DNA of 64,000 nucleotides from Pristiophorus japonicus. Its lineage: Eukaryota. The stretch spans positions 13,702,001-13,766,000 of the forward strand of contig NC_092002.1 of NCBI RefSeq assembly GCF_044704955.1. The letters run 5' to 3'. The position numbers and the translations under genes were made by a program. Position 1 is the first letter of the stretch. Each line of letters starts with the position of its first letter. A model generated the notes under the pieces. The model saw only the letters and a program-made list of their open reading frames with translations, did no database searches and was not told where the DNA came from. Below are positions 1,830 to 50,049 of the stretch, in pieces.

Positions 1830-4800
1830 TCAACAACCTCTTCTAGCCATACATCCCTCCGAGAGCTCTATAATCTGCTGGAGCACAGATTGCTGGCCCC
1901 TTTCGACACTTGTAAACCCAGCGATGATGGCAGCAGTCTGAGCTTCCACTGCAGCAGTGAGACGTTGGGTTGCTTCTGCCTGTGCTGCAGTGGAAGCCGC
2001 AAGGTCTCCCATCACATCCACCATTATATTTGGGTCCACAAGGTCTCTCATGGAGCTGCTCATCATTTCCATCCCGGAAATCATGGGCTCCAAACTCTGT
2101 GCAAAACCCCGAGCAATGTTGGAGCTGGACTCCTCCATACTCCTTGACACTGACAAGAGGCTCTTTGGCAGGCTTGCCATTGCACCAAGCATTTCTGTGT
2201 GCATGCCCATCACTTTTCTTCTGAAGGCTGCCCCATCGAGGTCATCATCCGAGTCCTGTGGTGCAGCACCCGTGTGCAGACTCACTCTCCGGGGATCTGG
2301 AACTCGAACGACCCTTTCCCCCTGTCCTGGCTGCAGCCCACTCATGCCCGGTGACTCACCACGTGCAGATCCCGCCTCTGTAATACCCTCTAAAGTCTCT
2401 GCAGTGCCACTTACTGAGCTTGTGTCTACGGGTGTCAGACGTTGTTGCATTTTGTCGTCGTCGTCGTCGTCTTGTGCTTCTCCTCTTACATAAGTGTTTT
2501 CCTTATGTTCAGGATCAGTTGCTGGCGGTTCTTGGGTACCTGAAAACAGAAAGGCAAGGGAGGGGGAAGAGGAGGGATCAAGATATCCATGCCTACACCA
2601 TCAGCAGCTTATAACTGAGAAGTGATTATGGGATTAGGAGGAAGTGGGATGTGAGAAGGAGGATTGGGTATAAGCATACCGTCATCATCAGTGCTGCTTT
2701 CTGCTTCTCCGTCCTCCACGAACTCTGTCCCTGCCCCTTCGTTAATTTGGAACATTGATTCCTCCTGGTCAGTTAGGTCAGCCCTTGCTTGGTCGTCTCC
2801 CGCCTGCTGCTGCTCTCCGCGGTTATCAGCCACCTTTACCTGCAAGAGAAAGGGAAGTGTGTCAGTGAGTGCAGGGCAATGCATTTGGGCGATGCGCGTG
2901 CCTTGGTTGAATAGCTGGCAGTGTGTGCAAGCGTGAGATGTGGCTGCGAGTGTTGCAGCAGCGGTAAGGTTGTGAGGGTGAAGTGAAGCCGTGATTATGA
3001 GGTGTGGGTGGTAGGTGAATGAGGAATTGAGCAGTGTGTGAGGCTAGGAGGGGCAGATGATGGGGCATGGCATTGGTAGAAGAACCAAAGGTGACTTAAG
3101 GGAAAAACTTTTTAAAATTCAGCGAGTGGTCAGGATTTAAGAACATAAGAAATAGGAGCGGGAATGGGCCATCTGGCCCCTCGAGCCTGCTCCGCCATTT
3201 AATAAGGATCTGATCATATACTCAGCTCCACTTTCCTGCCCGCTCCCCATAACCCTTTATTCTCGTCGCTCAAAAATCTGTATCTCCGCCTTAAATATAT
3301 TCAATGACCCAGCCTCCACAGCTCTCTGGGGCAGAGAATTCCACAGATTTACAACCCTCAGAGAAGAAATTCCTCCTCATCTCAGTTTTAAATGGGCGGC
3401 CCCTTATTCTGAGACTATGTCCCCTAGTTTTAGTTTCCCCTATGAGTGGAAATATCCTCTCTGCATCCACCTTGTCGAGCCCCCTCATTATTTTATGTTT
3501 CAATAAGATCACCTTTCATTCTTCTGAACTCTAATGAGTATAGGCCCCACCTATCTTTATAAGTCAACCCCCTCATCCCCGGACCTTCTCTGAACAGCCT
3601 CCAATGCAAGTATATCCTTCGTTAAATACGGAGACCAGAACTGTACACAGTACTCCAGGTGTGGCCTCACCAATACCCTGTACAGTTGTAGCCGGACTTC
3701 TCTGCTTTTATACTCCATCCCCCCTTGCAATAAAGGCCAATATTCCATTTGCCTTACTTGCTGTACCTGCATACTAACTTTTTGTGTTTCATGCACAAGG
3801 ACCCCCTGGTCCCTCTGTACTGCAGCACTTATGCAATTTTTCTCCATTTCAATTATAATTTTCTTTTCTATTTTTTCTGCCAAAGTGGATAACCTTACAT
3901 TTGGCCACATTATACTCCATCTGCCAAATTATTGCTCACTCACTTAGCCTGTTTATATCACTTTGCAGATTTTGTGTGTCCTCCTCACAATTTGTTTTCC
4001 CACCCATCTTTGTATCATCAGCAAATTTGGCTACATTACAAAAGCAAATTTCTGCGGATGCTGGAATCTGGAATAAAAACAGAGAATGCTGGAAATCTCA
4101 GCCGGTCAGGCAGCATCTGTGGAGAGGAAGCAGAGTTAATGTTTCGGGTGGGTGACCTTTCGTCAGAACTGGTTCATGTTCGTCAGAACATCGACCCGAA
4201 TCTGCTTCTTCTCCACAGATGCTGCCTGACCTCAGATTTCCAGCATTTTCTGTTTTTATTGGCTACATTACACTCGGTTCCTTCATCCAAGTCATTAATA
4301 TAGATGGTAAATAGTTGAGGCCCCAGCACCGATCCCTGCGGCAACCCAACTAGTCACTGTTTGCCAAATGGAAAATGACCCATTTATCCCGACTCTCTGT
4401 TTTCTGTTAGTTAGCCAATCCTCTATCCATGCTAATATATTACCCCCAACCCCGTGAACTTTTATCTTGTTCAGTAACCTTTTATGTGGCACCTTATCGA
4501 ATGCCTTCTGGAAATCCAAATGCACCACATCCACTGGTTCCCCTTATCCACCCTGCTCGTTACCTCCTCAAAGAACTCCAGCAAATTTGTCAAACATGAT
4601 TTTTCTTTCATAAAACCATGCTGGCCTTGCTTGATTGAATTATGGTTTTCTAAATATCCTGCTACTGCTTCCTTCAGTATTTTCCCAACGATAGATGTTA
4701 GGCCAACTGGTCTACAGTTTCTTGCTTTTTGTCTGCCTCCTTTATTAAATAGGGGTGTTACATTTGCGATTTTCCAATCTGCTGGGACCGCTCCAGAATC

Positions 4801-7800: not shown

Positions 7801-8642
7801 AGTCACGGATGGTTATCCCTTCTCTTAGTCTTTCCTTCTCATTGGGATATATTTTTGTTGCGAGTTATGAAATATCTTCTTAAATGTCTGCCACTGCTCA
7901 TCAACCGTCCCATACTTTAATCTACTTTCGCAGACCACTTTAGCCAACTCTGCCCTCATTCCTTTGTTGTCTCCTTTATTTAAGCTTAGGACATTGGTTT
8001 GAGAACCAACTTCCCCAGCCTTCCAACTGAATTTTATATCCAACCATGTTATGATCACTCATTCCTAGAGAATCCTTTACTAGATCATTTATCAATCCTG
8101 TCTCATTACAAAGTACCAGATCTAAAGTAGCCTGCTCCCTGGTTGGTTCTGCAACATACAGTTTGGAATGCTCTGCCTGAGAGGGTGGTACAGGCAGACT
8201 CTATCATGGCTTTCAAAAGGGAATTGGCTAAGTACCTGAAGGTAAAAAAAATTGCAAGGAAACGGGGAAAGGACAGGCGGAGAGGAAGGGAGTGGGACTA
8301 GCTAAAGTGCACTTGCAGTGAGCCAGCACGGGCCCCGACGGGCCGAGTGGCCTCCTTCAGTGCTGTAATCATTCTGCGACGTTTGCTGAAGTCCTCACTC
8401 ACCTTGACCAGCTGGATGAGGTCATCAAGCCTCTTCCGACACTGGATGCGCGTCCTGGGAACCACACTCGCCGCCGTGACAGCTTTGGCTATCTCCTTCC
8501 AGACTCGCCCGCACTGGAGTTTTGAAGGCTTCTCGCCATCTTGCGGAAATAGGATATCGCATCGGCGTTGGGCCCCGTCGACCAGGGCCTCGAGGGTCGT
8601 ATCCGAAAACCGCATCGCCCTTGACGGCTGGTGTCTCTCCAT
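1830..8642 (-). CDS. Myb/SANT-like (Harbinger-derived, NAIF1/MSANTD-type) gene copy A; intact 369 aa when spliced
   Basis: Exons 8642-8403 (240 nt; FSD..L..LV..LF..W..IA..V..RT..QCRKR..DL), 2839-2680 (160 nt) and 2539-1830 (710 nt); GT/AG sites; phases 0 and 1; no internal stops. Confidence 0.8.
4041..4258. mobile_element. Penelope pseudo-LTR-derived hairpin element with 14-bp TSD
   Basis: TSD ttggctacattaca at 4027-4040 and 4259-4272; internal inverted repeat (aaaaacagagaatgctggaaatc... / ...gatttccagcattttctgttttt); same sequence heads the Penelope fragments at about 18550 and 38945. Confidence 0.75.
4131..4170 (-). ncRNA. Candidate minimal hammerhead ribozyme (Penelope-associated)
   Basis: Minus strand agttCTGACGAaaggtcacccaccCGAAACattaactctg contains the CUGANGA...GAAA core; stem II is imperfect. 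Confidence 0.45.
5246..7680 (-). mobile_element. Younger CR1 nested in the older CR1, with an internal inverted segment (about 6721-7040, + strand)
   Basis: ORFs 5526-6029, 6014-6289 and 7032-7772 on minus; 6663-7079 on plus; aacataag tail repeats at about 5246-5272. Confidence 0.85.
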
Positions 8643-8788
8643 GCCTGGCAACAATTCACAACACCACAGATAATGAAACAGTCCGTGCCCACATACAACA
8701 AGACTTGGATAACATTCACTTGGGCTTCTTGTGCATCTCCTCCACCATAAGTATCTTCCTTATGTTGAGGTACAATTGCTGGCGGTTT

Positions 8789-9863
8789 TTAGGTATCTGA
8801 AAGCAAAAAGGCAGAAAGCAAGATATCCATGCATCCACCATCAGCAGCTTGTAAGTGAGGTGATTGTGGGATGAGGGGGAAGTGGGATGTGAGAAGAAGG
8901 ATTAGGTATAAGCATACCGTTGTCATCATCGGTGCTGCTTTCCAATTCTCCGTTCTCCACGGACTCTGTGCCTGTCTCTGCCCCTTCAATAATTTGGAAC
9001 ACTGATTGCTCCAGGTCAGTTAGGCCCACCCTTGCTTGGTCGCCTCCTGCCTGCTGCTGCTCTCCGCGGTTATCAGCCACCTTTACCTGCAAGAGAAAGG
9101 GAAGTGTGTCAGTGAGTGTAAGGCTATGCGTTTGGGTGATGTGACTGCATGGTATAATAGCTGGCAGTGTGTGTGCAAAGTGTGAGATGCGGGTGTGAGT
9201 GTTGCAGCAAGCGGTAAGGTTGTGAGGGTGAAGTGACGCCGTGGCTGTGAGGTGTGGATGGTGACAGCTAGAGATTGTGGGTAGGTGAGTGAAGCAGTGA
9301 CCAGTGTCTGATGGTGGGATGTGGCATTGGCAGAAGAACCAAAGGTGACTTGAGGGGGAAAAAAATTAAATGCGGTGAGTGGTTAGGATCTGGAATGCAC
9401 TGGAAAGGGTGGTGGAGGCAGACTCAATCGTGGATTTTAAAAGGGAATTGGATAAGTACCTAGCGGAATTTTTTTTTGCAGGGTTACAAGAAAAGAGTGG
9501 GGCAGGCAGGGGAGTGGGACTAGCTAAAGCGCTCTTGCAGAGATCCGGCATGGGCCCAGCGGGCTGAGTGGCTTCCTTCAGTGCTGTAATCATTATATGA
9601 TATTTGCTGTAGCTTTCGCTCACCTTGACTAGCCGGATGAGATCATGAAATCTCTTCCGGCACTGGATGGGCGTCCTGAGAAATGTACTCGCCTCCGTGA
9701 CGGCTTTCGCTATCTCCTTCCAGACCCGCTTGCGCTGACTAATTGAAAGCCTCTTGCCCCCTTGCGAAAATAGGACATTGCTTCGTCGTTGGACCCCGTG
9801 GACCAGGGCCGCCAGGGCAGTATCCGAAAACTGCTTTGCCTTTGACCGCCGGTGTCTCTCCAT
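8789..9863 (-). pseudogene. Myb/SANT-like gene copy B; truncated (about 138 aa, Myb domain plus exon 2)
   Basis: Exon 1 9863-9624 intact; exon 2 9086-8918; exon 3 starts at 8796 with an immediate TAA (DT*) and is deleted beyond about 8720. Confidence 0.78.
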
Positions 9864-9899
9864 GCCTGGCAAAAAAGTGCTTCGCCTTTACGGAGAGCC

Positions 9900-10490
9900 T
9901 AGGCCTAACTTTCCTGGGCTGGTAGGCTGCACCCGATATTGGGCACTGCTGCACCCTTCCACTCTTCCCCTGAGAGATCAGCGCTGCAATTGTGTGAACA
10001 AAATTCGTGCTGGCTGCACCACTCAAACGGGCGCAAGGCGAATGCCAGCGGTCGCTGCCTCCGCCGGTTTACGGCCTTAACTAATGTCGTTCGCCGTTCC
10101 AAAGACGAGCAGTGCGCAGGTGCCGGAGAGCCACGGGGTGGGCGGTGCTGACTAACGGTCTGATTGACACATTGCTACATTACGTCACCGAGTCCAGACT
10201 GGGAGTTTGCGCATTGGCGTCTGGCCGGCGGCAGGTTTGCGCGTGATGACGCCACAACCTCCGCCCCCTTACGAGCTGACGACATGCATACAAAATGTGA
10301 AATCGGCGGGAAGGTGGTGTCTGCTCGGCGCCGAGCTGCTGCTGCTGCTGTTGGTCGCCGGGATCTCGGAGCCCGGCAAATGGAGGCTGAATATCGCCGG
10401 GGTAAGTCCGCCGGTCGCCGTGTGAGCCGGAGCGGCGGGGAATCCGGGGCCGTAACTATAGCGACCGGCGGCTGGGCCGCGCTGAAAAAC
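9900..10490. promoter_or_regulatory. CpG-rich, probably bidirectional promoter copy 1 with a degenerate plus-strand signal-peptide exon
   Basis: CpG-dense; tgcgcaggtgc, gggcgg and ttacgtca motifs; exon remnant SAGRWCLLGAELLLLLLVAGISEPGKWRLNIAG followed by gtaagt at 10402; ATG lost. Confidence 0.65.
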
Positions 10491-10584
10491 GGGAAATATC
10501 CCGGTGTGCTGGCAAATGTTTATCCCTCAATCAACATAACAAAACAGATTATCTGGTCATTATCACACTGCTGTTTGTGGGAGC

Positions 10585-20676: not shown

Positions 20677-21274
20677 TTACAATGTTTTAGTTCTCATGGT
20701 ACCCAATGCATGTAGAGATATCACATCTTGTTTCCTTTCGTTCTTGCACATGATCTGACAGCAAGGCAATAATCTCGTCACGAATCTGACCTGCAGACTG
20801 TCATCTGTAATAATCTGGTGTTGCATTGTACATGAGGAAACCGAGGAATGACACTGCGTTTGCTCTGACCTCGGGTAGCACATTCCTAAAGAAGGTGACA
20901 CAGCTCCTTATGTACAAAGTGATCTGGTTGGGGAAGTCTTTGGTAATGTGCCTGGAGTTGTTGCGTAAATATTTCTCAAAATACAGGGTGGTCTCCTCCA
21001 AGGAAAGCTCTTGAAACATCTTGGACATGATTTCTGACTCCATTACTGGACTGTAGGAATTCAGCACGGATTTGCAGACTTTGATGACTTCATTGCTCTC
21101 ATCGTTGAGATGCAGCAGCAAGCTGATCAAGGTGGACTTGATGTGCTCAATATGTGCAGGGTTCATTTCCACAGTCCCAAATCTGATCAGCTTCCCAAGT
21201 ACATTAAAAGCCGTAGCTCTCACTTTCTCATGTTGATTTTCAAAGTAAGGCTGAACTGCCAGTGCAAACACCAA
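20677..21274 (-). pseudogene. MROH1: MROH1/maestro-like C-terminal HEAT-repeat fragment, intronless
   Basis: VQPYFENQHEKVRATAF..LISLLLHLND..VCKSVL..FPNQ..FFRNVLPEVRANAVSFLGFL resembles the MROH1 C-terminus; stop and frameshift near 20800. Confidence 0.75.
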
Positions 21275-21339
21275 GAATCGGATGTATTGCCAAGCAGCCG
21301 ATAACTTTATTTGAAAAAGGCCGTGTCATTATTTCCTGC

Positions 21340-22600
21340 TTGAGGTCATCATCAGCAGAAGAATTGTATGCCACCACAATCTGTAACCTCATGGCCCAGC
21401 AGATCCTCCACTCTACCATTACTATCAAGTCATGGAACCAATCATGGTTCAATGAGGAATGTAGAAGAGCATGCCAAGAGCAGCACCAGGCGTACCTAAA
21501 AATGTGGTACCAACCTGGAAGCTACAACACATGACTACATTTATGCTAAACAGCAGAAGCAGCATGCCATAGGCAGAGCTAACCAATCCCACAACTCAAC
21601 GGATCAGATCAAAGCTCTGCAGTCCTGCCACATCCAGTCGGGAATGGTGGTGGACAATTAGACATCTAATGAGAAGAGCAGACTCCATGAACACCCCCAT
21701 CCTCAATGATAACGCAGCCCAGTACATGAGTGCAGAAGACAAGGCTGAAGCGTTTTGCAACCATCATCAGCCAGAAGTGCCGAGTGGATGATCTATCTCG
21801 GCCTCCTCCTGAGGTCTCCATCACTAAAGCCGGTCTTCAGCCAATTTGATTCACTCCACGTGATATCAAAAAACGGCTGAGCGCACTGGATACAACGAAG
21901 GCAAAGGACCTCGACAACATTCCAGCAGTAGAGTTGAAGACTTGTGCTCCAGAACTAGCTGCGCCTCTGGCCAAGCTGTTGCAGTACAGCAACAACACCG
22001 GCATCTATCTAACAAAGTGGAAAATTGCCCAGGTATGTCCTGTCCCCAAAAAAGACAAAACCAACCCTGCAATTATCGCCCCATCAGTGTACTCTCAATC
22101 ATCAGTAAAGGAAGGAGTCATCGACAGTACTATTAAGCGGCACGTACTCAATAGCCTGCTCACCATTACACAGTTTGAGTTCCACCAGGACCACTCAGCT
22201 CCAGAACTCATTAGAGCTTTGGTCCAAACATGGACAAAAGAGATTAATTCTAGAGGCGAAGTGAGAGTGACTTCTCTTGATATCAAGGCAACATTTGACC
22301 AAGTAGTGAAATTGAAGTCTATAGGAATCAGGGGTAAAACCGCTGACTGGAGTTATATCTAGCACAAAGGACTATGTTTGTGGTTGGTGGCCAGTTATCT
22401 CAGCCCCAGGACATTGCTGCAGGAGTTCCTCAGACCCAACCATCTTCATCAATGATCGACAGTCCATTATAAGGTCAAAAATGAGGACTGCACAGTGTTT
22501 AGTTCTATTCGCAACCCATCAGATAATGAAACAGTCCGTGCCCACATTTAGCAAGCCCTGGACAACATTCAGGCTTGGGCTGATAAGTGGCAAGTAACAG
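21340..22600 (+). mobile_element. Old CR1/jockey-group LINE RT fragment (amplicon block)
   Basis: ORFs 21262-21534 (WFNEECRRACQEQHQAYL) and 21934-22362 (KTCAPELAAPLAKL..). Confidence 0.8.
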
Positions 22601-22694: not shown

Positions 22695-24422
22695 TCAGCA
22701 ACCTTTTCCAGCCCTACATGCCTCCGAGAGCTCTGCAATCTGTTGGAGTACAGATTGCTGGCCCCTTTCGACACTTGTAAACCCAGCGATGATGGCAGCA
22801 GTCTGAGCTTCCACTACTGCAGTGAGATGTTGGGACGCTTCTGCCTGTGCTGCAATGGAAGCCACAAGATCGCCCATCACATCCACCATCATATTTGGGT
22901 CAAGATCTCTCATGGAGCTGTCCATCATTTCCATCCCGGAAATCATGGGCTCCAAGCTCTGCGCAAAACCCTGTACAATGTTGGAGCTGGACACCTCCAT
23001 GCTCCTTGACACTGACAAGAGGCTTTTTGGCAGGCTTGCCATTGCACCAAGCATTTCTGTGTGCATGCCCATCACCTTTCTTCTGAAGGACGCCCCATCG
23101 AGGTCGTCATCGGAATCCTGTGGTGCAGAACTCGTGCACAAACTCGGCTTCCGGTGACCTGGCACCCGAGCGACCCTTTGCCCCTGTCCTGGCTGCAGCC
23201 CACTCATGCCCGGTGACTCACCACTTGTGGATCCGGCCTCTGTACTATCCTTTAAAGTCTGTGCAGTGCCACTTCCTGAGCTTGCGTCTACGGGTGTCAG
23301 ACGCAGTTGCATTTTGTCGAGGTCTTCTTGTGCTCCTCCTACATAAGTGTCTTCCTTATGTTCAGGTACAGTTGCTGGCGGTTCTTGGGTATCTGAAAGC
23401 AGAAAGGCGGTGGGGGGAGGGGGTAGCAAAATATCCATGCACACACCATCAGCAGTTTGTAAGTGAGAAGTGATTATGGGATGAGGGGGAAGTGGGATGT
23501 GGGAAGTATTGGGTATAAGCATACCGTCATCATCAGCGCTGCTTTCCACTTCTCCGTTCTCCGTGGACTCTGTCCCTGCCCTTTCGATAATTTGGAATAC
23601 TGATTGCTCCATGTCTGTTAGGTCAAACCTCGCCTGGCCGCTTCTCGCCTGCTGCTGCTCTCCGCGGTTATCAGCCACCTTTCCCTGCAAGAGAAAGGGA
23701 AGTATGTCAGTGAGTGTAGGGCTATGCGTTTGGGTGATGTGCCTGCCATGGTTGAATAACTGGCAGTGTGTGCAAAGTGTGGGATGTGGGTGTGAGTGTT
23801 GCACCAGCGGTAAAGTTGTGAGGGTGAAGTGTAGCTGTGAGGTGTGGGTGGTGACAGCGAGAGATTGTGGGTAGGTGAGTGAGGCTAGGAATGCAGATGG
23901 TGGGATATGGCATTGGCAGAAGAACCAAGGTGACTTGAGGAAAAACATCTTAATGCTGCAAGTGCCTGAGAGGGTGGTGGAGGCAGACTCAATTGATGCT
24001 TTCAAAAGGGAATTGGATAAGTACCTGCAGGAAAAAAAATTGCAGGGATACGGGGAAAAGGTGGGCGGGGGAGCGGGACTAGTTAAAGTGCACTTGCAGT
24101 GAGCCGGCACGGGCCCGACGGGCTGATTGGTCTCCTTCAGTGCTGTAATCATTCTACAACATTTGCTGAAGTCTTCACTCACCTTCACCAGCCGGATGAG
24201 GTCATCAAGCCTCTTCCGACACTGGAGGGGTGTTCTTGGAACCACACTCGCCGCCGTGACAGCTTTGGCTATCTCCTTCCAGACCCGCCCGCACTGGAGT
24301 TTTGAAGGCCACTTGCCGCCTTGCGGAAATAGGATATCGCGTCGTCGTTGGGCCCCGTCGACCAGTGCCTCGAGGGCAGTGTCCGAAAACCGCACCGCCC
24401 TTGACGGCCGGTGTCTCTCCAT
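22695..24422 (-). CDS. Myb/SANT-like gene copy C; intact 365 aa spliced (also open unspliced)
   Basis: Exons 24422-24183, 23684-23525 and 23392-22695; introns of 498 and 132 nt with GT/AG; the ORF track shows one 579-aa frame across everything. Confidence 0.82.
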   Translation of the reverse strand: MERHRPSRAVRFSDTALEALVDGAQRRRDILFPQGGKWPSKLQCGRVWKEIAKAVTAASVVPRTPLQCRKRLDDLIRLVKVSEDFSKCCRMITALKETNQPVGPVPAHCKCTLTSPAPPPTFSPYPCNFFSCRYLSNSLLKASIESASTTLSGTCSIKMFFLKSPWFFCQCHIPPSAFLASLTYPQSLAVTTHTSQLHFTLTTLPLVQHSHPHPTLCTHCQLFNHGRHITQTHSPTLTDILPFLLQGKVADNRGEQQQARSGQARFDLTDMEQSVFQIIERAGTESTENGEVESSADDDGMLIPNTSHIPLPPHPIITSHLQTADGVCMDILLPPPPTAFLLSDTQEPPATVPEHKEDTYVGGAQEDLDKMQLRLTPVDASSGSGTAQTLKDSTEAGSTSGESPGMSGLQPGQGQRVARVPGHRKPSLCTSSAPQDSDDDLDGASFRRKVMGMHTEMLGAMASLPKSLLSVSRSMEVSSSNIVQGFAQSLEPMISGMEMMDSSMRDLDPNMMVDVMGDLVASIAAQAEASQHLTAVVEAQTAAIIAGFTSVERGQQSVLQQIAELSEACRAGKGC

Positions 24423-24651
24423 GCCTGGCAACAATTCACAACACCACAGATAATGAAACAGTCTGTGCCCGCATTCAACAAGACCTGGACAACATTCAGG
24501 CTTGGGCTGCTAAGTGGCAAGTAACAGTCACGCCACACAAGTGCTGGTGAATGACCATCTTTTTCAGACACACACTCACACATTTAGACAGCACTCGCAC
24601 AGGACAACACCTCTAATTTCAAATCCCTCCACGGCTTCACCATACCCTATC

Positions 24652-26285
24652 TCAGCAACCTCTTCCAGCCCTACATCCCTCCGAGAGCTCTGCAATCTGT
24701 TGGAGTACAGATTGCTGGCCCCTTTCGACACTTGTAAAACCAGCGATGATGGCAGCAGTCTGAGCTTCCACTGCAGCAATGAGACGTTGGGTTGCTTCTG
24801 CCTGTGCTGCAATGGAAGCTGCAAGGTCTCCCATCACATCCACCATCATGTTTGGGTCCACAAGATCTCTCATGGAACTGCCCGTCATTTCCATCCCAGA
24901 AATCATGGGCTCCAAGCTCTGCGCAAAACCACGGGCAATGTTGGTGCTGGACACCTCCATGCTCCTTGACACTGACAAGAGACGCCTTGGCAGGCTTGCC
25001 ATTGCACCAAGCATTTCTGTGTGCATGACCATCACCTGAAGGCCACCCCATTGAGGGCATCATCCAAGTCCTGCATTGCAGAACTCATGCGCAAACTCGC
25101 CCTCCGGGGATCTGTCATGTGAGCGACCCTTTCCCACTGTCCCGGCTGCAGCCCACTCGTGCCCGGTGACTCACCATGTGCAGATCCCTCTAAAGTCTGT
25201 GCAGTGCCACTTTCTGAGCTTGCGTCTACGGGTATCATATGCTGTTCCGTCTTGTCGTCGTCTTGTGCTTCTCCTCCACCATAAGTGTCTTCCTTATGTT
25301 CAGGTACAATTGCTGGTGGTTCTTGGGTATCTGAAAGCAGAAAGGCGGGGGGGAGGGTAGCAAGATATCCATGCTTACTCCATCAGCAGTTTGTAAGTGA
25401 GAAGTGATTATGGGATGAGGGGGAAGTGGGATGTGAGAAGAACGATTAGGTGTAAGCATACTGTCATCATCTGCGATGCTTTCCGCTTCTCCGTTCTCCA
25501 TGGACTCAGTTACAGCCCCGTCGATAATTTGGAACACTGATTCCTCGAGGTCAGTTAGGCCCACCCTCGCTTGATCGCCTCCCTCCTGCTCTCCGCGGTT
25601 ATCAGCCACCTTTTCCTGCAAGAGAAAGAGATGTGGTTGCCATGATTGAATAGCTGGCAGTGTGTGCAAAGTGTGAGGTGTGGGTGGTGACAGAGAGAGA
25701 TTGTGGGTAGGTGAGTGAGGCAATGAGCAGTGTGTGAGGCTAGGGTTGCTGATGGTGGGAAAGGGCAGTGGCAGAAGAACCAAAAGGTGACTTGAAGGAA
25801 AAACATGTTTAAATGCAGCGAGTGGTTAGGATTTGGTATGCACTGCCCGAGAGGTTGGTGGAGGCAGACTCAATCGTGGCTTTCAAAAGGGAATTCACTA
25901 AGTACCTGAAGGAAAAATGAAAATTGCAGGGTTACAGGGAAGGGGCGGGGAGTGGGACTAGCTAAAGCGCTCTGGCATTGGCGTGACGGCTGCAATCCTT
26001 CAATGCTGTAATCATTCTACAACATTTGTTGAAGCCTTCACTTACCTTGACCAGCCGGATGAGGTCATGAAATCTCTTCAGACACTGGAGGGCCGTACTG
26101 GGAACTTCACTCGCCAATGTGACGGCTTTCGCTACCTCCTTCCAGACCAGCCTGGACTCCAATCTTGAAGGCCTCTTGCCACATTGCGGGAATAGGATAT
26201 TGCGTCGTCGTTGGACCCCATGGACCAGGGCCTTCAGAGCCATATCCGAAAATCGCGTTGCCCTCGACAGCCGCTGTCTCTCCAT
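24652..26285 (-). pseudogene. Myb/SANT-like gene copy D; frameshift in exon 3
   Basis: Exons 26285-26046, 25615-25462 and 25330 onward; a deletion of about 7 nt at about 25036 (ttcag|gtgatg vs ttcagaagaaaggtgatg) gives a stop at 25032-25034, before the helical C-terminal region. Confidence 0.78.
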
Positions 26286-27329
26286 GCCTGGTAACAATTC
26301 ACAACACCACAGATAATGAAACATACAAGACCTGAACAACATTCAGGCTTGGGCTGCTAAGTGGCAAGTAACAGTCGCGCCACACAAGTGCTGCATAATG
26401 ACCATCTTTTTCAGACACACAAACACACGCGCACAAATTTCACACAACACTTCAAGTCCCTCCAGGGCCTCGCCCTACCCTATGTCAGCAACCCTACATC
26501 CCTCCGAGATTGTCCATCACATCCACCATCATGTTTGGGTCAAGATCTCTCATGGAACTGCCCATCATTTCCATCCCGGAAATCATGGGCTCCAAGCTCT
26601 GCGCAAAACCCCGGGCAATGTTGGAGCCGGACTCCTCCATGCTTCTTGACACTGACAAAAGGCTCTTTGGCAGGCTTGCCACTGCACCAAGCATTTCTGT
26701 GTGCATGCCCATCACCTTTCTTCTGAAGGCCACCCATTGAGGTCATTATCCGAGTCCTGTGGTGCAGAACTCGTGCGCAAACTCTATGCAAGAAGAACGA
26801 TTAGGTACAAGCATACCGTCGTCATCATCAGTGCTGTTTTCCAATTCTCCGTTCTCCACGGACTCTGTCCCTGCCCCTTCCATAATTTGGAACACTAATT
26901 CCTCCAGGTCAGTTAGGTCAACCCTCGCTCGGTTGCCTCCCGCCTGCTGTCCGCGGTTATCAGCCACCTTTACCTGTAAGAGAAAGGGAAGTGTGTCAGT
27001 GAGTGTAGGGCTATGCGTTTGGGTGATGCGCCTGCCATGGTTGAATAGCTGGCAGTCCGTGTGAAGTGTGAGATGTGGGGGTGAGTGTTGCAGCAGCGGT
27101 AATGTGAGGGTGATGTGAAGCCGTGAGGAGTGGGTGGTGACAGCGAGAGATTGTGGGTAGGTGAGTGAGGCTAGAGGTGCAGATGGTGGGATATGGCATT
27201 GGCAGAAGAACCAAAGGTGACTGGAGGGATTTTTTTTTTAATGCAGCGAGTGGTTAGGATTGGGACTGCACTGCTTGAGAGGGTGGTAAAAGCAGACTCG
27301 ATTGTGGCTTTCAAAAGGGAATTGGTTGG

Positions 27330-27595: not shown

Positions 27596-27599
27596 GTAA

Positions 27600-28209: not shown

Positions 28210-28519
28210 AATCATTCTATGACATTTTGCTGAAGCCTTCACTCACCTTGACCAGTCGGCTGAGGTCATGAAATCTCTTCCGGCACTGGAGGGGCGTCCT
28301 GGGGATCACACTCGCCTCCGTGACAACTTTGGCTATCTCCTTCCAGACCCGCTTGCGCTGGCGGATTGAAGGCCTCTTGCCCCCTGGCGGGAATAGGATA
28401 TTTCGTCGTCGTTGGACCCCGTGGACCAGGGTCTCCAGGGTCCGATCCGAAAAGCGCTTCGCCTTTGACCGTTGGTGTCTCTCCATGCCTGTCAACAAAG
28501 CGCCTCGTCTTTTTTATGG

Positions 28520-29110
28520 AGAGCCTGGGCCTAACTTTCCAGGAATGGTAGACTGCACCCGATATTGGGCACCTCCCCACCCTTCCTCTCTTCCCCTGAG
28601 AGATCAGCGCTGCAATCGTGTGAACAAGCGCCAGAAATCCGTGCAGGTTGCACCACTCCAACAGGCGAATACCGGCGGTCGCTGCCCTCGCCGGTTTGCG
28701 GCCTTAGTCAACGTCCGTCGCAAAGGCGGACACTGCGCAGGCGCCGGGGTGGGCGGGGCTTCCCATCCATCTGATTAACAGTTTGCGTCATGGCGCCACA
28801 ACGTCGGGTCCAGACTGGGAGTTTGCGCAGAGGCATCTGGCCACCGGAGGGGTTTGTGCGCGATGACGTGTCAAACTCCCCGCTCCCTTGCGCACTGACG
28901 TTCAGACGGAAAACAAGATGGTGGTGAGGTGGTGGCGACCGTGGTGGCGGAGCCCGGCAAATGGAGGCTGAGTGTCGCCGGGGTAGGTCCGTCGGTCGCC
29001 GTGTGAGCCGGAGCGGCGGGGAATCCGGGGCCGCAACTATAGCGACCGCGGCCTAGGCCGCAGCAGCGTGGACCCTGGGCCGCGCTGACCCGGCTCTCGC
29101 CGTCCCCTGA
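28520..29110. promoter_or_regulatory. CpG-rich promoter copy 2 with an internally deleted signal-peptide exon
   Basis: tgcgcaggcgc, gggcgggg and tgacgt motifs; aagATGg at 28918; EPGKWRLSVAG followed by gtaggt at 28983. Confidence 0.65.
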
Positions 29111-29187
29111 TAGCCGCGGCCCGGTTGGTGCTGTCAGCTCATAGCGAGTGCGAATTACAGAGGTATGCGGTACAGAAACAGGCCATT

Positions 29188-29765
29188 CAGCCAGTGGCTC
29201 AGCGGGCGGCACTCATCTGAGTCACAAGGTTGTGGGGAGAGACTTGAAAAAAGACTTGCATTTATATAGCGCCTTTCAAGACCACTTGATGTTCCAAAGA
29301 GCTTTACAGCCAATGAAGTACTTGAGCACAAAAATCTAGGCTGACACAGTGCTGAGGGAACGCTACACTGTCTGAGGTGCTGCCTTCCGGATGAGACGTT
29401 AAACTGAGGCTCCGTCTGCACTCTCAGGTGGATGTTAAAAATCCCATAGCACTATTTTGAAGAAGTGGGATTAGGATGAATAGTTCTTTGTTGGCCAGCG
29501 TGGACACGATGGGCTGATATGGGCTCCTTCCATACTGTAAATTGCTATGATTCTATGAAGAACAGGGGAGTTATCCCTGGTGTGCTGGCCAATATTTATC
29601 CCGCAACCAACATCGCTAAACAACATTATCTGGCCATTATCACATTGCTGTTTGTGTAATTTCCTACATTACAACAGTGATTACACTTTGAAAAGTATTT
29701 CATTGGTTATAAAGCACGTTGGGGCATCCAGTGGTCACAAAAGACGCTCTATAAATGCAAGACTT
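29188..29765 (+). mobile_element. DeuSINE-like SINE with small internal insertions
   Basis: cagccagtggctcagc head, gatgagacgttaaac core, ttgctgtttgtg..cctacattacaacagtga tail. Confidence 0.6.
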
Positions 29766-37010: not shown

Positions 37011-37044
37011 TTCCTTTGCAGAATGACTACTGACAACGCGGCCG

Positions 37045-37190: not shown

Positions 37191-37224
37191 TGATTTGGGG
37201 TTTAGGGTTTAAAAACTCTCTCCC

Positions 37225-43289: not shown

Positions 43290-44665
43290 AACTTTTATTA
43301 AAAACATCCCAAGGTGTTTCACACCAGTGTTAGAGACAAACAGATAAATTTGACACCGAGTCACAGAAAAAATTAAGGCAGATGATCAAAAGCTTGTTTA
43401 AAGAGGTAGGCTTTAACAAGCGACTTAAAGGAGGAAAGAGAAGTAGAGAAGCGTGGAGGGAGTTCCAGAGCTTAGGGCCCAGGCAGATGAAGGCATATCC
43501 ACCGATGGTTGTGTAGTTAAAATGAGGGATGTTCAAGAGGCCAGAATTTGAGGAGCGCAGACATTTCTTGTGGGATTGTGAGGCTGAAAAAGATTACAGA
43601 TAGGGAGGGGTAAGTCCATGGATGATAAACAAGGATGAGAATTTTGAAATCTAGGCGTAGTTTAACTGGGAGCTAATGTAGGTCAGAAAGCAGAGGTGTC
43701 ATGGGTGACCTTGACTTGGTGCGGGTTAGTACACGGGCTGCTGAGTTTTGGATGACTTCAAGTTTACGCAATGTGGAAGGCCGGCCAGGAGTGAGTTGGA
43801 GTAGTCAAGTCTAGAGGTAACAAAGGCATTGATGAGAGTTGCAGCAGAAGAGCTGAGGCGGAGGCAGGCAATGTTATGGAGGTGGAAAAGCCGGTTTTAG
43901 TTATGCCACGGATATGTGGCTGGAAACTCATTTCATGGTCAAATATGACACCTAGGTTGTGAACAGTCTTGTTCTCCCTCAGATTGATGCTAGAGAGAGG
44001 GACGGAGTCAGTGGTTAGGGAACGCAGTTTGCGGCGGGGACCAAAGATGATGGCTTCGGTCTTCCCAATATTTAATTGAAGAAAATTTCTGCTCATCCAG
44101 TACTGGATGTCGGACAAGCAATCTGACAATTTAGATACCAAGCAGGGGTTGAGAGAAGTCGTGGAGAGGTAGAGCTGGGTGTCATCAGCGTACATGTGGA
44201 AACTGACTCTGTGTTTTCGGATGATGTCGTAAAGGGGCAGCGTATAGATGAGAAATAAGAGGGGACCAAGGATGCAACGATGCAGGAGTGGGAAGAGAAG
44301 CCATTGCTGGAGATTTTCTGGATGGGGTGGTCAGCCGTGTGAAAAGGCTGCAGACAGGTCCAGAAGGACGAGGAGGGATAGTTTACCTTTGTCACAGTCA
44401 TTTGTGACTTTGATGAGAGCCATTTCGGTACTGTGGCAGGGGCGAAAGCCAGATTGAAGGGATTCAAACACTGAATTCATGGAAAGATGATCACGGATTT
44501 GGGAGGCAACAACACGTTCAAGTACTTTGGACAGGAAGGGAAGGTTGGAGATGGGGCGATAGCAAGCAAAGTGGGGCCAAGTGTTATTTTTTTGAGGAGT
44601 GGGGTGAGGACAGCAGATTTGAAGGAGAGGGGAACAGTACCTGAGGACAGAGAACCGTTAACATG
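43290..44665 (-). mobile_element. L2 LINE fragment
   Basis: MYADDTQLYLS..LQLNIGKTEA (43764-44195). Confidence 0.85.
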
Positions 44666-45038
44666 GGTTGTGTGCACGGATCTAAAGAGAAAAACACAAA
44701 GCAAGGGAGGAAAGGAAATTAAAAGGGTTTCCTTAATAAATCTTATTTGTAAAATAAATACAGACAGTTCTTCCAATAAAATCTTTTCTTTATTCAAAAA
44801 TTAATTTTCCAATAAGTGAGGTTGGAGTTGATGCTGATGATAATTACAGCAGAAATTTTTCGAACACAATTTATGTACAAAATAGGGTAAAAATCCAACA
44901 ACTGTATTTGGGACATAAGTGTTGTCTGTAGAACAGTTCAGGTTGTTTCCATTGTGATGTTTTCTGCCTTTTGGCCATTTTTGATCTACGAATTCTTCTA
45001 CTTCAGACATGTTTCCAAACACAATACAAACAAATCCC

Positions 45039-45270
45039 TTACAATGTTTTAGTTCTCATGGTCCCTAATACATGTGGATGTATCACATCTCCTTGTTTCC
45101 TATCTTTCTTGCACATGATCTGACAGCAAGACAATAATCTCGTCACAAATCTGACCTGCAGATTTTGATCTGTAATAATCCGGTGGTGCATTGCACATGA
45201 GGAAACCGAGGAATGTCACTGCGTTTCCTCAGACCTGAGGTAGCACATTACTGAAGAAGGCGGCACAGCT
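45039..45270 (-). pseudogene. MROH1-like extreme C-terminal fragment, second copy
   Basis: Clear paralog of 20677-20905. Confidence 0.7.
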
Positions 45271-46390
45271 GTATCTAAAAATGAGATGCCTACCTGGGAA
45301 GCTATAACACATGACTACAATTACGCGAAGCAGCATGCCATAGACAGGGCTAAGCGATCCCACATCTCAATGGATAAGATCAAAGCTCTGCAGTCCAGCC
45401 CCATCCAGTCGTGAACGGTGATGGACAATTAAACACTAACGGGAAGAGCAGGCTCCATGAACATCCCATACTCAGTGATAGTTAATCAAATGCCCAGCAC
45501 GCAAGTGCAAAAGACAAGGCTGAAGCATTTGCAACCATCTTCAGCCAGAAGTGCCAAGTTGATGATCTATCACCATCACTGAAGCCAGTCTTCAGCTAAT
45601 TTGATTCACTCTATGTGATATCAAAAAAAGTCTAAGTGCACTGGATACAACAAAGGCAAAGGGTCTCAACAACATCCTGGCAGTAGTGCTGAAGACTTGT
45701 GCTCCAGAACTAGCTGTGCCTGTAGCCAAGCTGTTCCAGCACAGCTACAACACTGGCATCGACCCAAAAAAGTGGAAAATAGCCCAGGTATGTCCTGTCC
45801 ACAAAAAAGGTCAAATCCAACCCTGCAATAATCGCCCCAGCTGCTACTCTCAATCATCAGCAAAGGAAGGTGTCATCGATAGTGCTATTAAGCAGCACAG
45901 ACTCATTAATAGCCTGTTCGCCATTGCACAATTTGAGTTCCGCCAGCATCACCCAGCTCCAGACCTCATTACAGCCTTGGTCCAAACATGGACAAAAGAG
46001 TTGAATTCCAGAGGTGAGGTGAGAGTGACTCAAGGCAGTATTTGACCGAGTGTGGCATCAAGTAGCCCCAGTAAAATTGAAGTCAATGGGAATCAGGGGT
46101 AAAACTCTACTGGCTGGAGTCATACGTAGTGCAAAGGAATATGGGACGGTTCTGGTTGTTTGTGGACAGTTTTGTCAGCCCCAGGACATTGCTGCGGGAG
46201 CTCCTCAGGGTAGTGTCCCAGGCCCAACCATCTTCAGTTGCTTCATCAATGACCTTCCCTCCATTATAAGATCAAAAGTGAGGACTGCACAGTGTTTAGT
46301 TCCATTTGCAACCTCTCAGATAATGCATACAACAAGCCCTGAACAACATTCAGGCTTGGGCTGCTAAGTGGCAAGTAACAGTCGTGCCGG
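45271..46390 (+). mobile_element. Old CR1/jockey-group LINE RT fragment (amplicon block)
   Basis: ORFs 45686-46045 and 46050-46367 (PQGSVPGP..FINDLP). Confidence 0.8.
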
Positions 46391-46477
46391 AAAATGACCA
46401 ACTTTTTCGGACACACGCAGGCACACAGGACAACTTCTCGAATTTCAAATCCCTCCATGGCCTCACCATACCCTATC

Positions 46478-49400
46478 TCAGCAACCTCTTGCAGCCCTAC
46501 ATCCCTCCGAGAACTCTGCAATCTTTTGGAGTACAGATTGCTGGCCTGCTGTGACACCCTGCAAGCCCCTTTCGACACTTGTAAACCCAGCGATGATGGC
46601 AGCAGTCTGAGCTTCCACTGCAGCAGTGAGCCGTTGGGTTGCTTCTGCCTGTGCTGCAATGGAAGCCGCAAGTTCGCCCATCACATCCACCATCATGTTT
46701 GGGTCCACAAGGTCTCTCATGGAGCTGCCCATTATTTCCATCCCGGAAATCATGGGCTCCAAGCTCTGCGCAAAACCCCGGGCAATGTTGGAGCCGGACT
46801 CCTCCATGCTCCTTGACAGGGACAAGAGGCTCTTTGGCAGGCTTGCCACTGCACCAAGCATTTCTGTGTGCATGCCCATCACCTTTCTTCTGAAAGCCGC
46901 CCCATCAAGGTCATCATCTGAGTCCTGCGGTGCAGAATTTGTGTGCAAACTCGCCCTCCGGGGATCTGGCTCCCGAGCTATCCTTTCCCCCAGTCCTGGC
47001 TGCAAGCCACTCATGCCCGGTGACTCACCATGTGCATATCCCGCCTCTGTACTACCCTCTAAAGTCTGCACGGTGCCACTTTCTGAGTTTGCGTCTACGA
47101 GTTTTAGATGCAGTGCTGTTTTGTCGTCTTCTTCTTCTTCTTGTGCTTCTCCTCCGCCATAAGTGTCTTCCTTGTGCTCAGGTACAGTTGCTGTCGGTTT
47201 TTGGGTATCTGAAAGCAGAAAGGCAGGGGAGGGGGGGTAGCAAGATATCCATGCACATACCATCAGCAGTTTGTAAGTGAGAAGTGATTATGGGATGAGG
47301 TGGAAGTGGGATGTGAGAAGTATTGGGTATAAGCATACCTTCATCATCAGCGCTGCTTTCCACTTCTCCGTTCTCCATGAACTCTGTCCCTGCCCCTTCG
47401 ATAATTTGGAATACTGATTGCTCCAGGTCAGTTAGTTCAAGCCTGGCATGGTCGCCTCCCGCCAGCTGTTGCTCTCCGCGGTTATCAGCCACTTTTACCT
47501 GCAAGAGAAAGGGAAGTGTGTCAGTGAGTGTAGGGCTATGTGTTTGAGTGATGCGCCTGCCTTGGTTGAATAGCTGGCTGTGTGTGCAAAGTGTGAGATA
47601 TAGGGGTGAGTGTTGCAGCAGCGGTAATGTGAGGGTGATGTGAAGCCGTGAGGTGTGGGTGGTGACAGCGAGAGATTGTGGATAGGTGAGTGGTGCATTG
47701 AGCAGTGTGTGAGGCTCGGGGTGCTGATGGTGGGATATGGCATTGGCAGAAGAACCAAAGGTGACTTGAGGGAAAAACTTTTTTAAAATGCTGCAAGTGG
47801 TTAGGATCTGGAATGTGCTGCTTGAGAGGGTGATGGAGGCAGACTCAATCGTGGCCTTCAAAAGGGAATTGGATAAGTGCCTGAAGGAAAAAAAATTTGC
47901 AGGGTAACTGGGAGAGGGTGGGAGGGAGAGAGGGACGAGCTGACGCGCTCTTGCAGAGAGCCGGCAAGGGCCCGAGTGGCCTCCTTCAGTGATGTAATCA
48001 TTCTATGACAGTGGTGGGCAAAATATGGCCCTGGGGCCATATGCAGCCCTCCAAGTTAATCTATCCGGCCTGCTGGATATGACAGAAATAGAACGCGAGC
48101 CAGGGCTCAAGATGCACATTTGTCTATCCACTTTTACTTCTCATGAGTCAGAGACAGACCCGAACTGCAGCGAAGGAGAAACTACAGCAAATACTTAATT
48201 CAAATCAGTAATTTGCAAAACGATTCTCCCAGGCCTGATCTTAAAAGGACTTTTTCCCGTGATTCTGGGCACCAGTGGTGGACGTCTGTACCCAGAATGC
48301 ACTGCGTACTCGAATAGGCCCTATCCATTTTAGAGTGGAGTCGTGGCTGCTTTTCGGGATGCAGAGGATAAATTAAAAGGATAAATTCCCCGCCCTGGTG
48401 GGACCTTGGTATAAGTGTGGAGGTTCCTTCATGCATCCAGATATGCTCACATGCTCTCGTGTGACCCGTATTCTCCACCCTGTATACTGGCGCTGGTTGT
48501 GATGTCCCACATGTGGAAGGAGCAACCTGGCAGCCTAGCCCAGCAGGCTCAGCGGCCCCCGGCCTGCGAGCACCATCGAAGCAGGCCGGGGAGCGGAAAG
48601 AGCAGCGTGGCAGCATACCACTCCAGGGAGCAGCACGTGCTGGGGCAGGAGAGCAACGGCAGCGAAGAGGGACGTCACCAAGATCAATGTCGCTGATTGG
48701 AGTGCGGGCAGATACAGCAGGAGCAGCGAGGTCGGGCGAAGAAGCGGCGAGAGGTTGTAGAGGGACGTGAACGGGGCCCAGGAGAGGCGTGAGTTTGGGG
48801 CCCAGAAGAGGCGAGGGCCCAGGGACAGCACGCGCCAGCCCACACATGCGCACTAGGTCCATGCAGCAGAGCTGGTCTCCAGTCGTCTTGGTTAATCCTT
48901 GCTACTGGACCAAGACCTAGCTCTGTCAAGCCCGTGTGGTGGCTGGTGTGAACAGTCACCACACATTAAAAAAATCCACGCACAGGCATCTTCCACCCTT
49001 CAATATGTAGTTCGGGACCTGGAATTTTAGGTCCTTCATTGAAATACCTGTGAACTTTTTGACGTGGAAGCAAAATCATCCTCGATTCGAGGGATTGCCT
49101 ATGATGATGATCTCCACAACTACTTTTCTGAAGAAAGTGACTGGTGCTGCATCTTTCCTCTCCTGAGTACGACAGGAGGGGAGTTTTCATCTGACACCAA
49201 TCGGGACAGCATTGGTAATCTTTGCAGAGGAGCATAAGGATGACTGAGGTGGGGAATTGATGCTGACACCAGGCTCTGAATAGTGTACAGTTCTTTTTCA
49301 TAGCACTGATTTACAGAGACCAGAAGCTACCTCAACATTTTCAACATTTATCTTTGATTCATTTCTAAGCAGTATCGAATACATGTTGTGTATGTAAGAT

Positions 49401-50035
49401 AGCATCTGACTACTATCTGAATTTGTGTTTATGCAGTGTTTATATTCCTATTCCCGCAAGGGGCAATTATTTGGGCTGGAGGGCCACTTAACAGGTTTTG
49501 GTGAGCTGTTGAGGGCCACTCACCAATGTTCCCTCTAATTTTTTTTGCACACGATCCCTTTAAATTTGCTGCACCACCGGCCGCTATGGAGTCGCACATG
49601 CGCAGTGTCTCTTCCAGCGGCAGGAGCTGGGGAGCGGCCTGCGCAGGACCGTGCGATTGTTGCGCGACCATGCAGCCACGCGCCTTAGGGAGGAACCTTG
49701 GTGGATGGCCCTCAACAGCTCACCAAAACTTGTTAAGTGGCCCTCCAGCCCAAATAGTTGCCTGTTCTACAACATTTGCTGAAGCCTTCACTTACCTTGA
49801 CCAGCCGGGTGAGGTCATTAAACTTCTTCCGGCACTGGATGGGCGTCCTGGGGACCACACTCGCCACCGTGACAGCATTCGCTATCTCCTTCCAGACTCG
49901 CCTGGTCTTCAGTATTGAAGGCTTCTTGCCCCCTTGCGGGAATAGGACATCGTGTTGTCGCCGGACCCCGTGGACCAGGGCCTTCAGGGCCGTATCCGAA
50001 AACCGCTTCGCCCTTGACCACCGGTGTCTCTCCAT
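46478..50035 (-). CDS. Myb/SANT-like gene copy F; intact 376 aa when spliced, directly downstream of its promoter
   Basis: Exons 50035-49796, 47498-47339 and 47208-46478; GT/AG sites; no stops. Confidence 0.83.
48009..49764. mobile_element. hAT-like non-autonomous DNA transposon in intron 1 of copy F, with nested elements
   Basis: Starts CAGTGGTGGGCAA and ends ttgcctg; imperfect 8-bp TSD ttctatga/ttctacaa; contains an RTE-like element and a MITE-like segment at 49524-49700 (caatgttccctctaa..ttagggaggaaccttg). Confidence 0.6.
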
Positions 50036-50049
50036 GCCTGGCAACAAAG

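What the first reader, a model, noticed from the sequence alone, without database searches (positions are those of the whole stretch)
1830..50035. Amplified array of six transposase-free Harbinger-type Myb/SANT genes
Seen: six co-oriented 3-exon genes. Each has a Myb/SANT-like exon 1 of exactly 240 nt, an acidic exon 2, and a low-complexity plus predicted helical exon 3. A, C and F splice to complete ORFs (369, 365 and 376 aa), although the surrounding LINEs of the same amplicon are riddled with indels. No HARBI1-like DDE transposase or flanking TIRs were seen. Known: PIF/Harbinger Myb/SANT proteins have been domesticated repeatedly (NAIF1, MSANTD family). Inference: a lineage-specific domesticated and tandemly expanded DNA-binding family, possibly a transposon repressor or germline regulator.
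Basis: partly seen in the sequence, partly recalled or inferred. Interest (0 to 1): 0.8.

Follow-up and report, generated by a model that had tools for sequence, protein, structure and literature searches.

The report
Shark genes chaining transposon DNA-binding modules
In a sawshark, one broken DNA transposon that landed next to a host gene's promoter was copied into five genes, three of which splice two or three transposon DNA-binding domains into one protein, a rare view of a transposon gene turning into a repeated protein domain.

Summary
The exons are real, but they are not six genes. Ten Myb/SANT units (six in the window, four just upstream) form five genes with 1, 3, 2, 3 and 1 Myb domains. 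In each cluster only the last unit keeps an intact exon 3. Inner units keep exons 1-2, have a broken exon 3, and splice in frame into the next unit. Public protein models agree (my 506-aa chain is identical to one), and one sequencing contig has exactly the length the chained splice predicts. All ten units descend from one 3'-truncated copy of a Harbinger family with tens of thousands of candidate matches in this 5.9-Gb genome. That copy lies head-to-head with a TMEM87A-like gene, whose CpG-island promoter and first exon were copied with it five times. Frames are kept (12 of 12 indels in frame, no stops) and dN/dS is about 0.5, so selection is real but moderate. No positive selection was found. 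What the proteins bind is untested. Verdict: a young domesticated Harbinger Myb family, a new variant of a known kind.

The parts
49796..50035 (-). Gene F exon 1 (single-module gene, 376 aa), Myb/SANT domain start
   Evidence: maps to public model P0001
47339..47498 (-). Gene F exon 2 (rest of the folded domain plus acidic tail)
46478..47208 (-). Gene F exon 3, intact (disordered linker plus two long helices)
50036..50262 (-). Retained Myb-side end of the Harbinger element, lacking the outer terminal-repeat bases; 28 nt shorter than dispersed copies just before the ATG
50263..50760 (.). CpG-island promoter region shared head-to-head with the TMEM87A-like host gene
50508..50633 (+). First coding exon of the TMEM87A-like host gene (rest of the gene lies to the right of the window)
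28247..28486 (-). Gene E-D-C, module 1 (E) exon 1
26817..26973 (-). Module 1 (E) exon 2; splices to D exon 1
26514..26784 (-). Dead remnant of E exon 3 (now intronic)
26046..26287 (-). Module 2 (D) exon 1 with the 2 nt before its ATG
25462..25615 (-). Module 2 (D) exon 2
25175..25330 (-). D exon 3a, linker ended by an internal donor, used in public models P0004 and P0005
24652..25174 (-). D exon 3b, frameshifted (now intronic)
24183..24424 (-). Module 3 (C) exon 1
23525..23684 (-). Module 3 (C) exon 2
22695..23392 (-). C exon 3, intact terminal exon of gene E-D-C
28487..29200 (.). Copy of transposon end plus TMEM87A-like promoter and first exon upstream of E
9624..9863 (-). Gene B-A, module 1 (B) exon 1
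8918..9086 (-). Module 1 (B) exon 2; splices to A exon 1
8727..8796 (-). Truncated remnant of B exon 3
8403..8644 (-). Module 2 (A) exon 1
2680..2839 (-). Module 2 (A) exon 2, behind a 5.5-kb intron swollen by LINE insertions
1830..2539 (-). A exon 3, intact terminal exon of gene B-A (506 aa)
9864..10480 (.). Copy of transposon end plus TMEM87A-like promoter upstream of B
20681..21325 (-). Co-duplicated intronless MROH-like (HEAT repeat) piece downstream of gene E-D-C; one such piece follows each of the five genes
44663..45312 (-). Broken MROH-like piece downstream of gene F
21492..22507 (+). Co-duplicated LINE fragment that follows the truncated 3' end of the Myb gene (further copies about 1092-1630 and 45271-46300)

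Best explanation
Five host genes derived from one Harbinger Myb gene. Inferred history: a Harbinger element sat head-to-head with the CpG-island promoter of a TMEM87A-like gene. It lost its transposase and the last ~110 codons of the Myb gene. A 28-nt deletion put a splice acceptor 2 nt before the ATG. Because exon 2 (and an internal donor in exon 3) ends in phase 1, any tandem copy then splices in frame into the next one. Short tandem duplications built two- and three-module genes, inner copies of exon 3b decayed, and the whole block (promoter, Myb gene, LINE piece, MROH piece) was copied five times. Shown: gene structure, frames, origin, promoter sharing, moderate purifying selection. Supported indirectly: chained splicing. 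Inferred: the proteins are nuclear DNA-binding regulators with 1-3 trihelix domains and a C-terminal coiled coil for oligomerisation. Their most likely targets are motifs in the ends of the parent Harbinger family, which the genome holds in very large numbers and which also survive in their own promoters (about 0.4 for this target; otherwise new host targets).
For: Pattern: 5 of 5 last units have an intact exon 3 and 5 of 5 inner units a broken one. All 10 exon 2s have length 3n+1 and all 10 exon 1s have AG exactly 2 nt before the ATG; the chains E-D-C, B-A and U4-U3-U2 read open for 630, 506 and 634 aa. Public models chain the same units: P0155 is identical to my B-A chain; P0003, P0004 and P0005 map to U4-U3-U2 and E-D-C; Pfam finds 1, 2, 3 and 3 Myb stretches in P0001, P0155, P0005, P0003. 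Contigs of two runs lie on D exon 1 edge to edge with no differences and run on in letters that lie elsewhere (table 8). A de Bruijn simulation of the chained transcripts gives 447 nt with 53 letters before the ATG and 154 after the exon, exactly run X3 record 22; separate genes give 483/37/206. Frames: 12 of 12 indels in the used parts are in frame against 12 of 50 in intron 1 (p=1e-6) and 2 of 9 in dead exon 3b (p=3e-4); exon 1 has 0 indels against about 21 expected. dN/dS: exon 1 0.46-0.54 (p<=3e-4), terminal exon 3b 0.46 (p=5e-5), inner-module tips of exon 1 0.44 (p=0.002). 28 of 28 neutral simulations gave 0.57-1.20 and stops in 2-10 of 10 units, against 0 seen. The upstream island occurs as long matches only five times, all here, and F's copy holds exon 1 of the TMEM87A-like gene. 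The ten units form one clade (100/100) among dispersed copies and sort by position in the gene.
Against: Constraint is weak: mean nucleotide identity of exon 1 (84.3%) is no higher than that of intron 1 (84.9%), and about 55% of exon-1 codons fit dN/dS=1. Dead exon 3b also gives dN/dS below 1 (0.57, p=0.008; tips 0.63 against 0.43 in terminal units, difference p=0.19). One of three co-duplicated controls is below 1 too (second LINE frame 0.61-0.64, p=0.02-0.03). Dispersed copies give 0.36 on their tips, not different from the array (p=0.16), though they were chosen by protein similarity. Several in-frame indels lie in triplet repeats. The junction letters were not seen: only 15 of 377 joint rows and 24 of 65,321 pieces were shown, and none of the 15 is an exon junction of these genes. 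The 559-nt contig of run X1 fits the chain by arithmetic (6+157+2+240+154) but no simulated transcript set reproduced it. The three runs come from one study and the public models may rest on the same data. No protein, tissue or binding evidence.
Confidence: 0.78

Rival explanations
1. Passively duplicated transposon debris that is transcribed only because it sits on a copied housekeeping promoter; the open frames and chained splicing are by-products.
For: The parent family is huge (56,140 first-look candidates for exon 1; 89,387 for DDE_Tnp_4), so some copies will look intact. Exon 1 is no more conserved than intron 1 in nucleotides. Dispersed copies and one LINE control also give dN/dS below 1.
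Against: 0 of 10 exon 1s carry a stop or indel, against stops in 11 of the 20 best dispersed matches and in 2-10 of 10 units in all 28 neutral runs. Lesions fall only in parts the chained transcript skips. MROH and LINE pieces copied in the same blocks are all frameshifted.
Confidence: 0.12
2. Five or six separate single-Myb genes plus pseudogenes; chained forms are minor read-through.
For: A, C and F, and U1 and U2 upstream, each read as complete 365-377 aa frames alone. Dead exon 3b retains some signal of constraint.
Against: A, C and U2 have no promoter copy; only about 90-240 nt of LINE-like sequence separates them from the unit before. The island occurs only before U1, U4, B, E and F. Inner exon 1s are under selection. 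Contig lengths fit the chain and not separate genes. All public models found for these units start at the first unit.
Confidence: 0.05
3. The proteins work as transposase partners or decoys (NAIF1-like), holding Harbinger transposases or HARBI1 through the conserved helical C-terminus, with DNA binding secondary.
For: The helical exon 3b is as constrained as the Myb exon in terminal units. Harbinger Myb proteins and NAIF1 bind their transposases (PMC9710019, passages). At least one intact transposase frame of the same family remains.
Against: What was multiplied is the DNA-binding module, while the C-terminus stayed single in each gene. Most copies of the parent family are old and broken.
Confidence: 0.15

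Closest known systems
Vertebrate Harbinger Myb-derived genes NAIF1 and MSANTD1-4 (also MYPOP, ZSCAN20, PRDM11, TSNARE1 as putative cases; PMC9392472, passages and section 13 read)
   Same: Derived from the Myb-like gene of a Harbinger element, fixed without transposase, Myb/SANT domain.
   Different: Those are single-copy, about 430-500 million years old and syntenic across vertebrates. This family is young (modules 82-92% identical), tandemly amplified, multi-domain, still 67-80% identical in DNA to dispersed copies of its parent, and not found at high identity outside this species.
Harbinger3_DR Myb-like protein of an active element (PMC9710019 and PMC9179366, passages)
   Same: Same domain type; the parent family here has the two-gene convergent layout and short terminal repeats.
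   Different: The array copies lack the transposase, the outer terminal repeat and the ~110-aa C-terminal tail, so they cannot move.
Older conserved elasmobranch Myb gene labelled MYPOP-like (P0009 in rays, P0011 in Heptranchias, P0012 in whale and zebra shark)
   Same: Same broad Harbinger Myb lineage, alignable over Myb domain and helical region.
   Different: 33-36% identical, single domain, separate clade (100/97) in the tree; not the ortholog.
Proteins with two Myb_DNA-bind_5 domains, some with KRAB or zinc fingers (P0030 from a frog, P0034, P0037, P0039, P0044)
   Same: Tandem Harbinger-type Myb domains in one chain.
   Different: Only 25-33% identical, different architecture; here the steps of the build-up are still visible in the DNA.
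Drosophila Zeste, plant GT-1 and fission-yeast Sap1 DNA-binding domains
   Same: Best structural neighbours of the predicted N-terminal domain.
   Different: All matches are weak (E 0.04 to 1.5); analogy of fold only.

Membership tests
PIF/Harbinger transposon (autonomous element) | DDE transposase gene paired with the Myb gene | tested here: not met
   None inside the array; present and convergent in 12 of 20 dispersed relatives and intact in L110.
PIF/Harbinger transposon (autonomous element) | Terminal inverted repeats at both ends | tested here: not met
   A shared Myb-side terminus is found in 10 of 20 dispersed loci and a similar inverted 12-mer at the far end of several. The array keeps only the inner part at one end (4 of 5 by motif scan, with 3 chance-level hits elsewhere in 264 kb; E seen in the alignment).
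PIF/Harbinger transposon (autonomous element) | 3-bp TWA target-site duplication (recalled) | tested here: inconclusive
   No matching pair could be read at the old dispersed copies; not applicable to the truncated array.
Harbinger Myb-like protein | Myb/SANT-like trihelix domain | tested here: met
   Pfam PF13873 above cut-off in 6 of 6 window exons; predicted helices over residues 14-118, most ten-residue blocks at pLDDT above 90.
Harbinger Myb-like protein | Descent from the Myb gene of a Harbinger element | tested here: met
   Exons, introns and 5' end align to dispersed copies that carry a convergent transposase; the array nests among them.
Harbinger Myb-like protein | Binds a subterminal motif of the element and binds the transposase | not testable with these tools
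   Needs binding assays.
Domesticated Harbinger Myb genes (NAIF1/MSANTD kind) | Immobile, open frames under purifying selection | tested here: met
   selection is moderate
Domesticated Harbinger Myb genes (NAIF1/MSANTD kind) | Transcribed and spliced | tested here: inconclusive
   Contig edges and lengths fit spliced chains and public isoform models exist, but junction letters were not displayed.
Domesticated Harbinger Myb genes (NAIF1/MSANTD kind) | Orthologs at a conserved position in other species | not testable with these tools
   No other shark genome could be searched; protein searches gave no close hit outside this species.
NAIF1, MSANTD1-4 or MYPOP orthologs | Single-copy ancient gene, distant from present transposon copies | tested here: not met
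   Five tandem genes nested among dispersed copies of a family in the same genome; human sequences were not compared directly.

The most novel reading that the evidence does not exclude
An expandable array of transposon-derived DNA-binding modules, built by gene-to-domain conversion under a captured housekeeping promoter, whose position-specific recognition helices read the ends of the tens of thousands of Harbinger copies in a 5.9-Gb shark genome and regulate them or the genes beside them, in the way KRAB zinc-finger arrays do in tetrapods.
Probability: 0.2. Interest if true: 0.85.

Novelty: new variant of a known kind. Interest (0 to 1): 0.62.

Why it matters
Known vertebrate Harbinger domestications are ancient and single-copy, so the steps are lost. 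Here each step is still readable: promoter capture from a host gene, truncation, one small deletion that made tandem copies splice in frame, decay of the skipped exons, and amplification of the whole block. It shows how a repeated DNA-binding architecture can arise from whole-gene duplicates, and it offers a direct test of whether a host turns a transposon's own binding protein against a family that has expanded hugely in its genome.

Tried and rejected
Sequencing-run search: no RNA holder listed; the three runs have no library type on record. Depth figures were not used to rank exons. Complex prediction of an intact family transposase (L110) with the helical C-terminus: no verdict. Positive selection: site model M2a gave no gain over M1a; stems of the three positional classes did not differ from background (p 0.14-0.86). 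Dispersed copies as a neutral dN/dS control did not discriminate. Inverted-repeat scan of nine dispersed loci showed no terminal repeat among the five longest pairs shown per locus; ends were found by alignment instead. Fold search gave no match at E<=0.001. Atlas search named only general Myb/SANT clusters, NAIF1 at 0.87, a lead only. A Myb-MROH fusion was considered and dropped: four of five MROH pieces are frameshifted and none of the eight public models mapped includes one. An upstream Myb exon at 29162 was considered and dropped: the edge is a plus-strand donor, not a minus-strand acceptor. Earlier-findings look-ups returned nothing. Literature searches and term searches inside PMC12318234 and bioRxiv 10.1101/2025.06.08.657570 found no description of this family; the library lacks most subscription papers, and no supplements were read.

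Full report
Observation. The six units are in the window on the minus strand. Each exon 1 is 240 nt, open, and passes the Pfam Myb_DNA-bind_5 cut-off. A, C and F splice to 369, 365 and 376 aa. B, D and E have broken third exons. A genome search placed four more units 16-37 kb upstream (here U4, U3, U2, U1); the ten best matches are these ten local units, and the other 140 scored are dispersed. The genome is 5.9 Gb. Public protein names give the species as Pristiophorus japonicus.

Origin. The first look found 56,140 candidates for exon 1, 29,784 for exon 3 and 89,387 for the Harbinger transposase family; these are candidates, not copy numbers. Twenty dispersed loci were fetched. They share exons and introns with the array at about 67-80% DNA identity. 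Twelve of the 20 carry a convergent transposase, two carry one in another orientation, and six have none within the 10 kb. One locus of the family has an intact 395-aa transposase frame. No transposase lies inside the array. The ten units form one clade (100/100) among the dispersed copies, apart from an older conserved shark and ray Myb gene. All five terminal units stop at the same place, about 110 codons short of the transposon's frame, followed by LINE-like sequence. About 230 bp of the element's Myb-side end survives before each first unit, without the outermost terminal-repeat bases.

Five genes, not ten. The units fall in five clusters, 5' to 3': F; E-D-C; B-A; U4-U3-U2; U1. In all five the last unit has an intact exon 3, and all five inner units have a broken one. 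Every exon 2 has length 3n+1 and every exon 1 has a splice acceptor 2 nt before the ATG, so exon 2 joins the next exon 1 in frame. The chains read open for 630, 506 and 634 aa. An internal donor in exon 3, in the same phase, lies upstream of all lesions in D, U3 and U4. In most dispersed copies read, the same AG lies about 30 nt before the ATG, which would be out of frame; the array's ancestor lost 28 nt there (inference). I made the chain prediction before the search for longer proteins. That search returned models of 747, 726 and 682 aa that chain the same units, and a 506-aa model identical to my B-A chain. These carry names such as 'uncharacterized protein isoform X1'. Modules group by position in the gene: first (U4, B, E), middle (U3, D), last (U2, A, C), single (U1, F), so the multi-domain form was probably built once and then copied.

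Transcript evidence. Three runs of one study hold the stretch as contigs; their library type is not on record. Contigs of X1 and X3 lie on D exon 1 from edge to edge with no differences and continue in letters that lie elsewhere; E exon 1 contigs of all three runs stop at its donor (24 of 65,321 pieces shown). Simulated unitigs of the chained transcripts give 447 nt, 53 before the ATG and 154 after the exon, exactly X3 record 22, while separate genes give 483, 37 and 206. The 559-nt X1 contig equals 6+157+2+240+154, but no simulated set reproduced it. The junction rows themselves were not among the 15 of 377 shown, so this is inference from edges and lengths.

Promoter. The CpG-rich region upstream of the first units has long matches only at five places in the genome, all here. 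In F's copy a plus-strand frame at 50508-50633 is the first exon of a TMEM87A-like gene, whose other exons lie 18-65 kb further right. So F is head-to-head with that gene, and the other four genes carry copies of its promoter and first exon. A LINE piece and an intronless MROH-like piece follow the genes and mark the fivefold block.

Selection. In the parts used by the chains, 12 of 12 indels are in frame, against 12 of 50 in intron 1 and 2 of 9 in dead exon 3b; exon 1 has none against about 21 expected. For these counts I removed large insertions from intron 1 of A, E and F, left out E's 186-nt end gap, and counted a 3-nt deletion shared by C and E with the terminal group. dN/dS from my own codon model is 0.46-0.54 for exon 1, 0.59-0.67 for exon 2, 0.84 for the linker exon 3a (not different from 1) and 0.46 for terminal exon 3b. 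Neutral simulations on the same tree gave 0.57-1.20 in 28 of 28 runs and stops in 2-10 of 10 units. Co-duplicated controls gave 0.78-0.81 (MROH), 0.98 (LINE) and 0.61-0.64 (second LINE frame, p=0.02-0.03), all with frameshifts. Against a strong reading: exon 1 is no more identical than intron 1 (84.3% and 84.9%); dead exon 3b also scores 0.57-0.63 and does not differ significantly from terminal copies; dispersed copies score 0.36 on their tips; no positive selection was detected. The frame evidence is stronger than the dN/dS evidence.

Protein. The model of F has a confident helical domain over residues 8-118, so exon 1 plus exon 2 is one whole folded unit, then a disordered linker and two long helices at 236-373. 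Fold matches are weak (Sap1, Zeste, GT-1). In the third helix, taken as the recognition helix from general knowledge of Myb domains, F and U1 keep the transposon's residues best, while modules of the multi-domain genes carry changes. A change of specificity is possible but untested.

Mechanism. Most likely these are broadly expressed nuclear proteins that bind DNA through one to three modules and oligomerise through the helices. Harbinger Myb proteins bind a subterminal motif and the transposase (PMC9710019, passages), so the parent family's ends are the first candidate targets (about 0.4). Expression breadth, binding and effect are all inferred.

Comparison and novelty. Harbinger Myb domestication is known: NAIF1, MSANTD1-4 and putative further cases, each single-copy and ancient (PMC9392472, passages and section 13). 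Proteins with two such domains exist elsewhere. The protein models are already public, unnamed. Seven literature searches found no description of this family. What is new is a young, amplified case in which whole transposon genes became repeated domains by read-through splicing under a captured promoter. New variant of a known kind; interest 0.62.

Noticed in passing
window 56299 to about 1.4 kb past the window's right end: An endogenous retrovirus with LTR-like direct repeats lies antisense in intron 1 of the TMEM87A-like gene; gag-, pol- and env-like frames are in pieces.
   Followed up: no
window 2415 and about 13.4 kb upstream of the window start: Public model P0006, an isoform of gene B-A, leaves exon 3 of A early and ends in an exon inside a neighbouring retroelement-like stretch.
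   Followed up: no
window 28953-29162: Contigs of two runs end at a plus-strand donor-like site at 29162, suggesting a spliced divergent transcript from the promoter copy upstream of E.
   Followed up: partly
window 20801-21325: One of five MROH-like pieces keeps an open 174-codon frame and is covered by contigs; probably a retrocopy in a long 3' region.
   Followed up: partly
L032 (G000:C4, about 146.78-146.79 Mb): The closest dispersed relative has an open exon 1 within a 344-codon frame, a GC-rich upstream region and a 390-codon open exon 3 frame; it may be a second domesticated copy.
   Followed up: no
proteins P0022 and P0008: Public models fuse sequence like this Myb gene's later exons to a PML-like RING/B-box/coiled-coil protein (this species) and to a SAMD1 winged-helix domain (Heptranchias).
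   Followed up: no
proteins P0009, P0011, P0012: A conserved single-domain Myb gene of the same broad lineage in rays and sharks, labelled MYPOP-like or uncharacterized; possibly an undescribed older domestication.
   Followed up: partly
whole genome G000: Harbinger elements are extremely abundant, with many transposase frames of 300-490 codons, whereas a paper found none in elephant shark (PMC9179366, passage).
   Followed up: no
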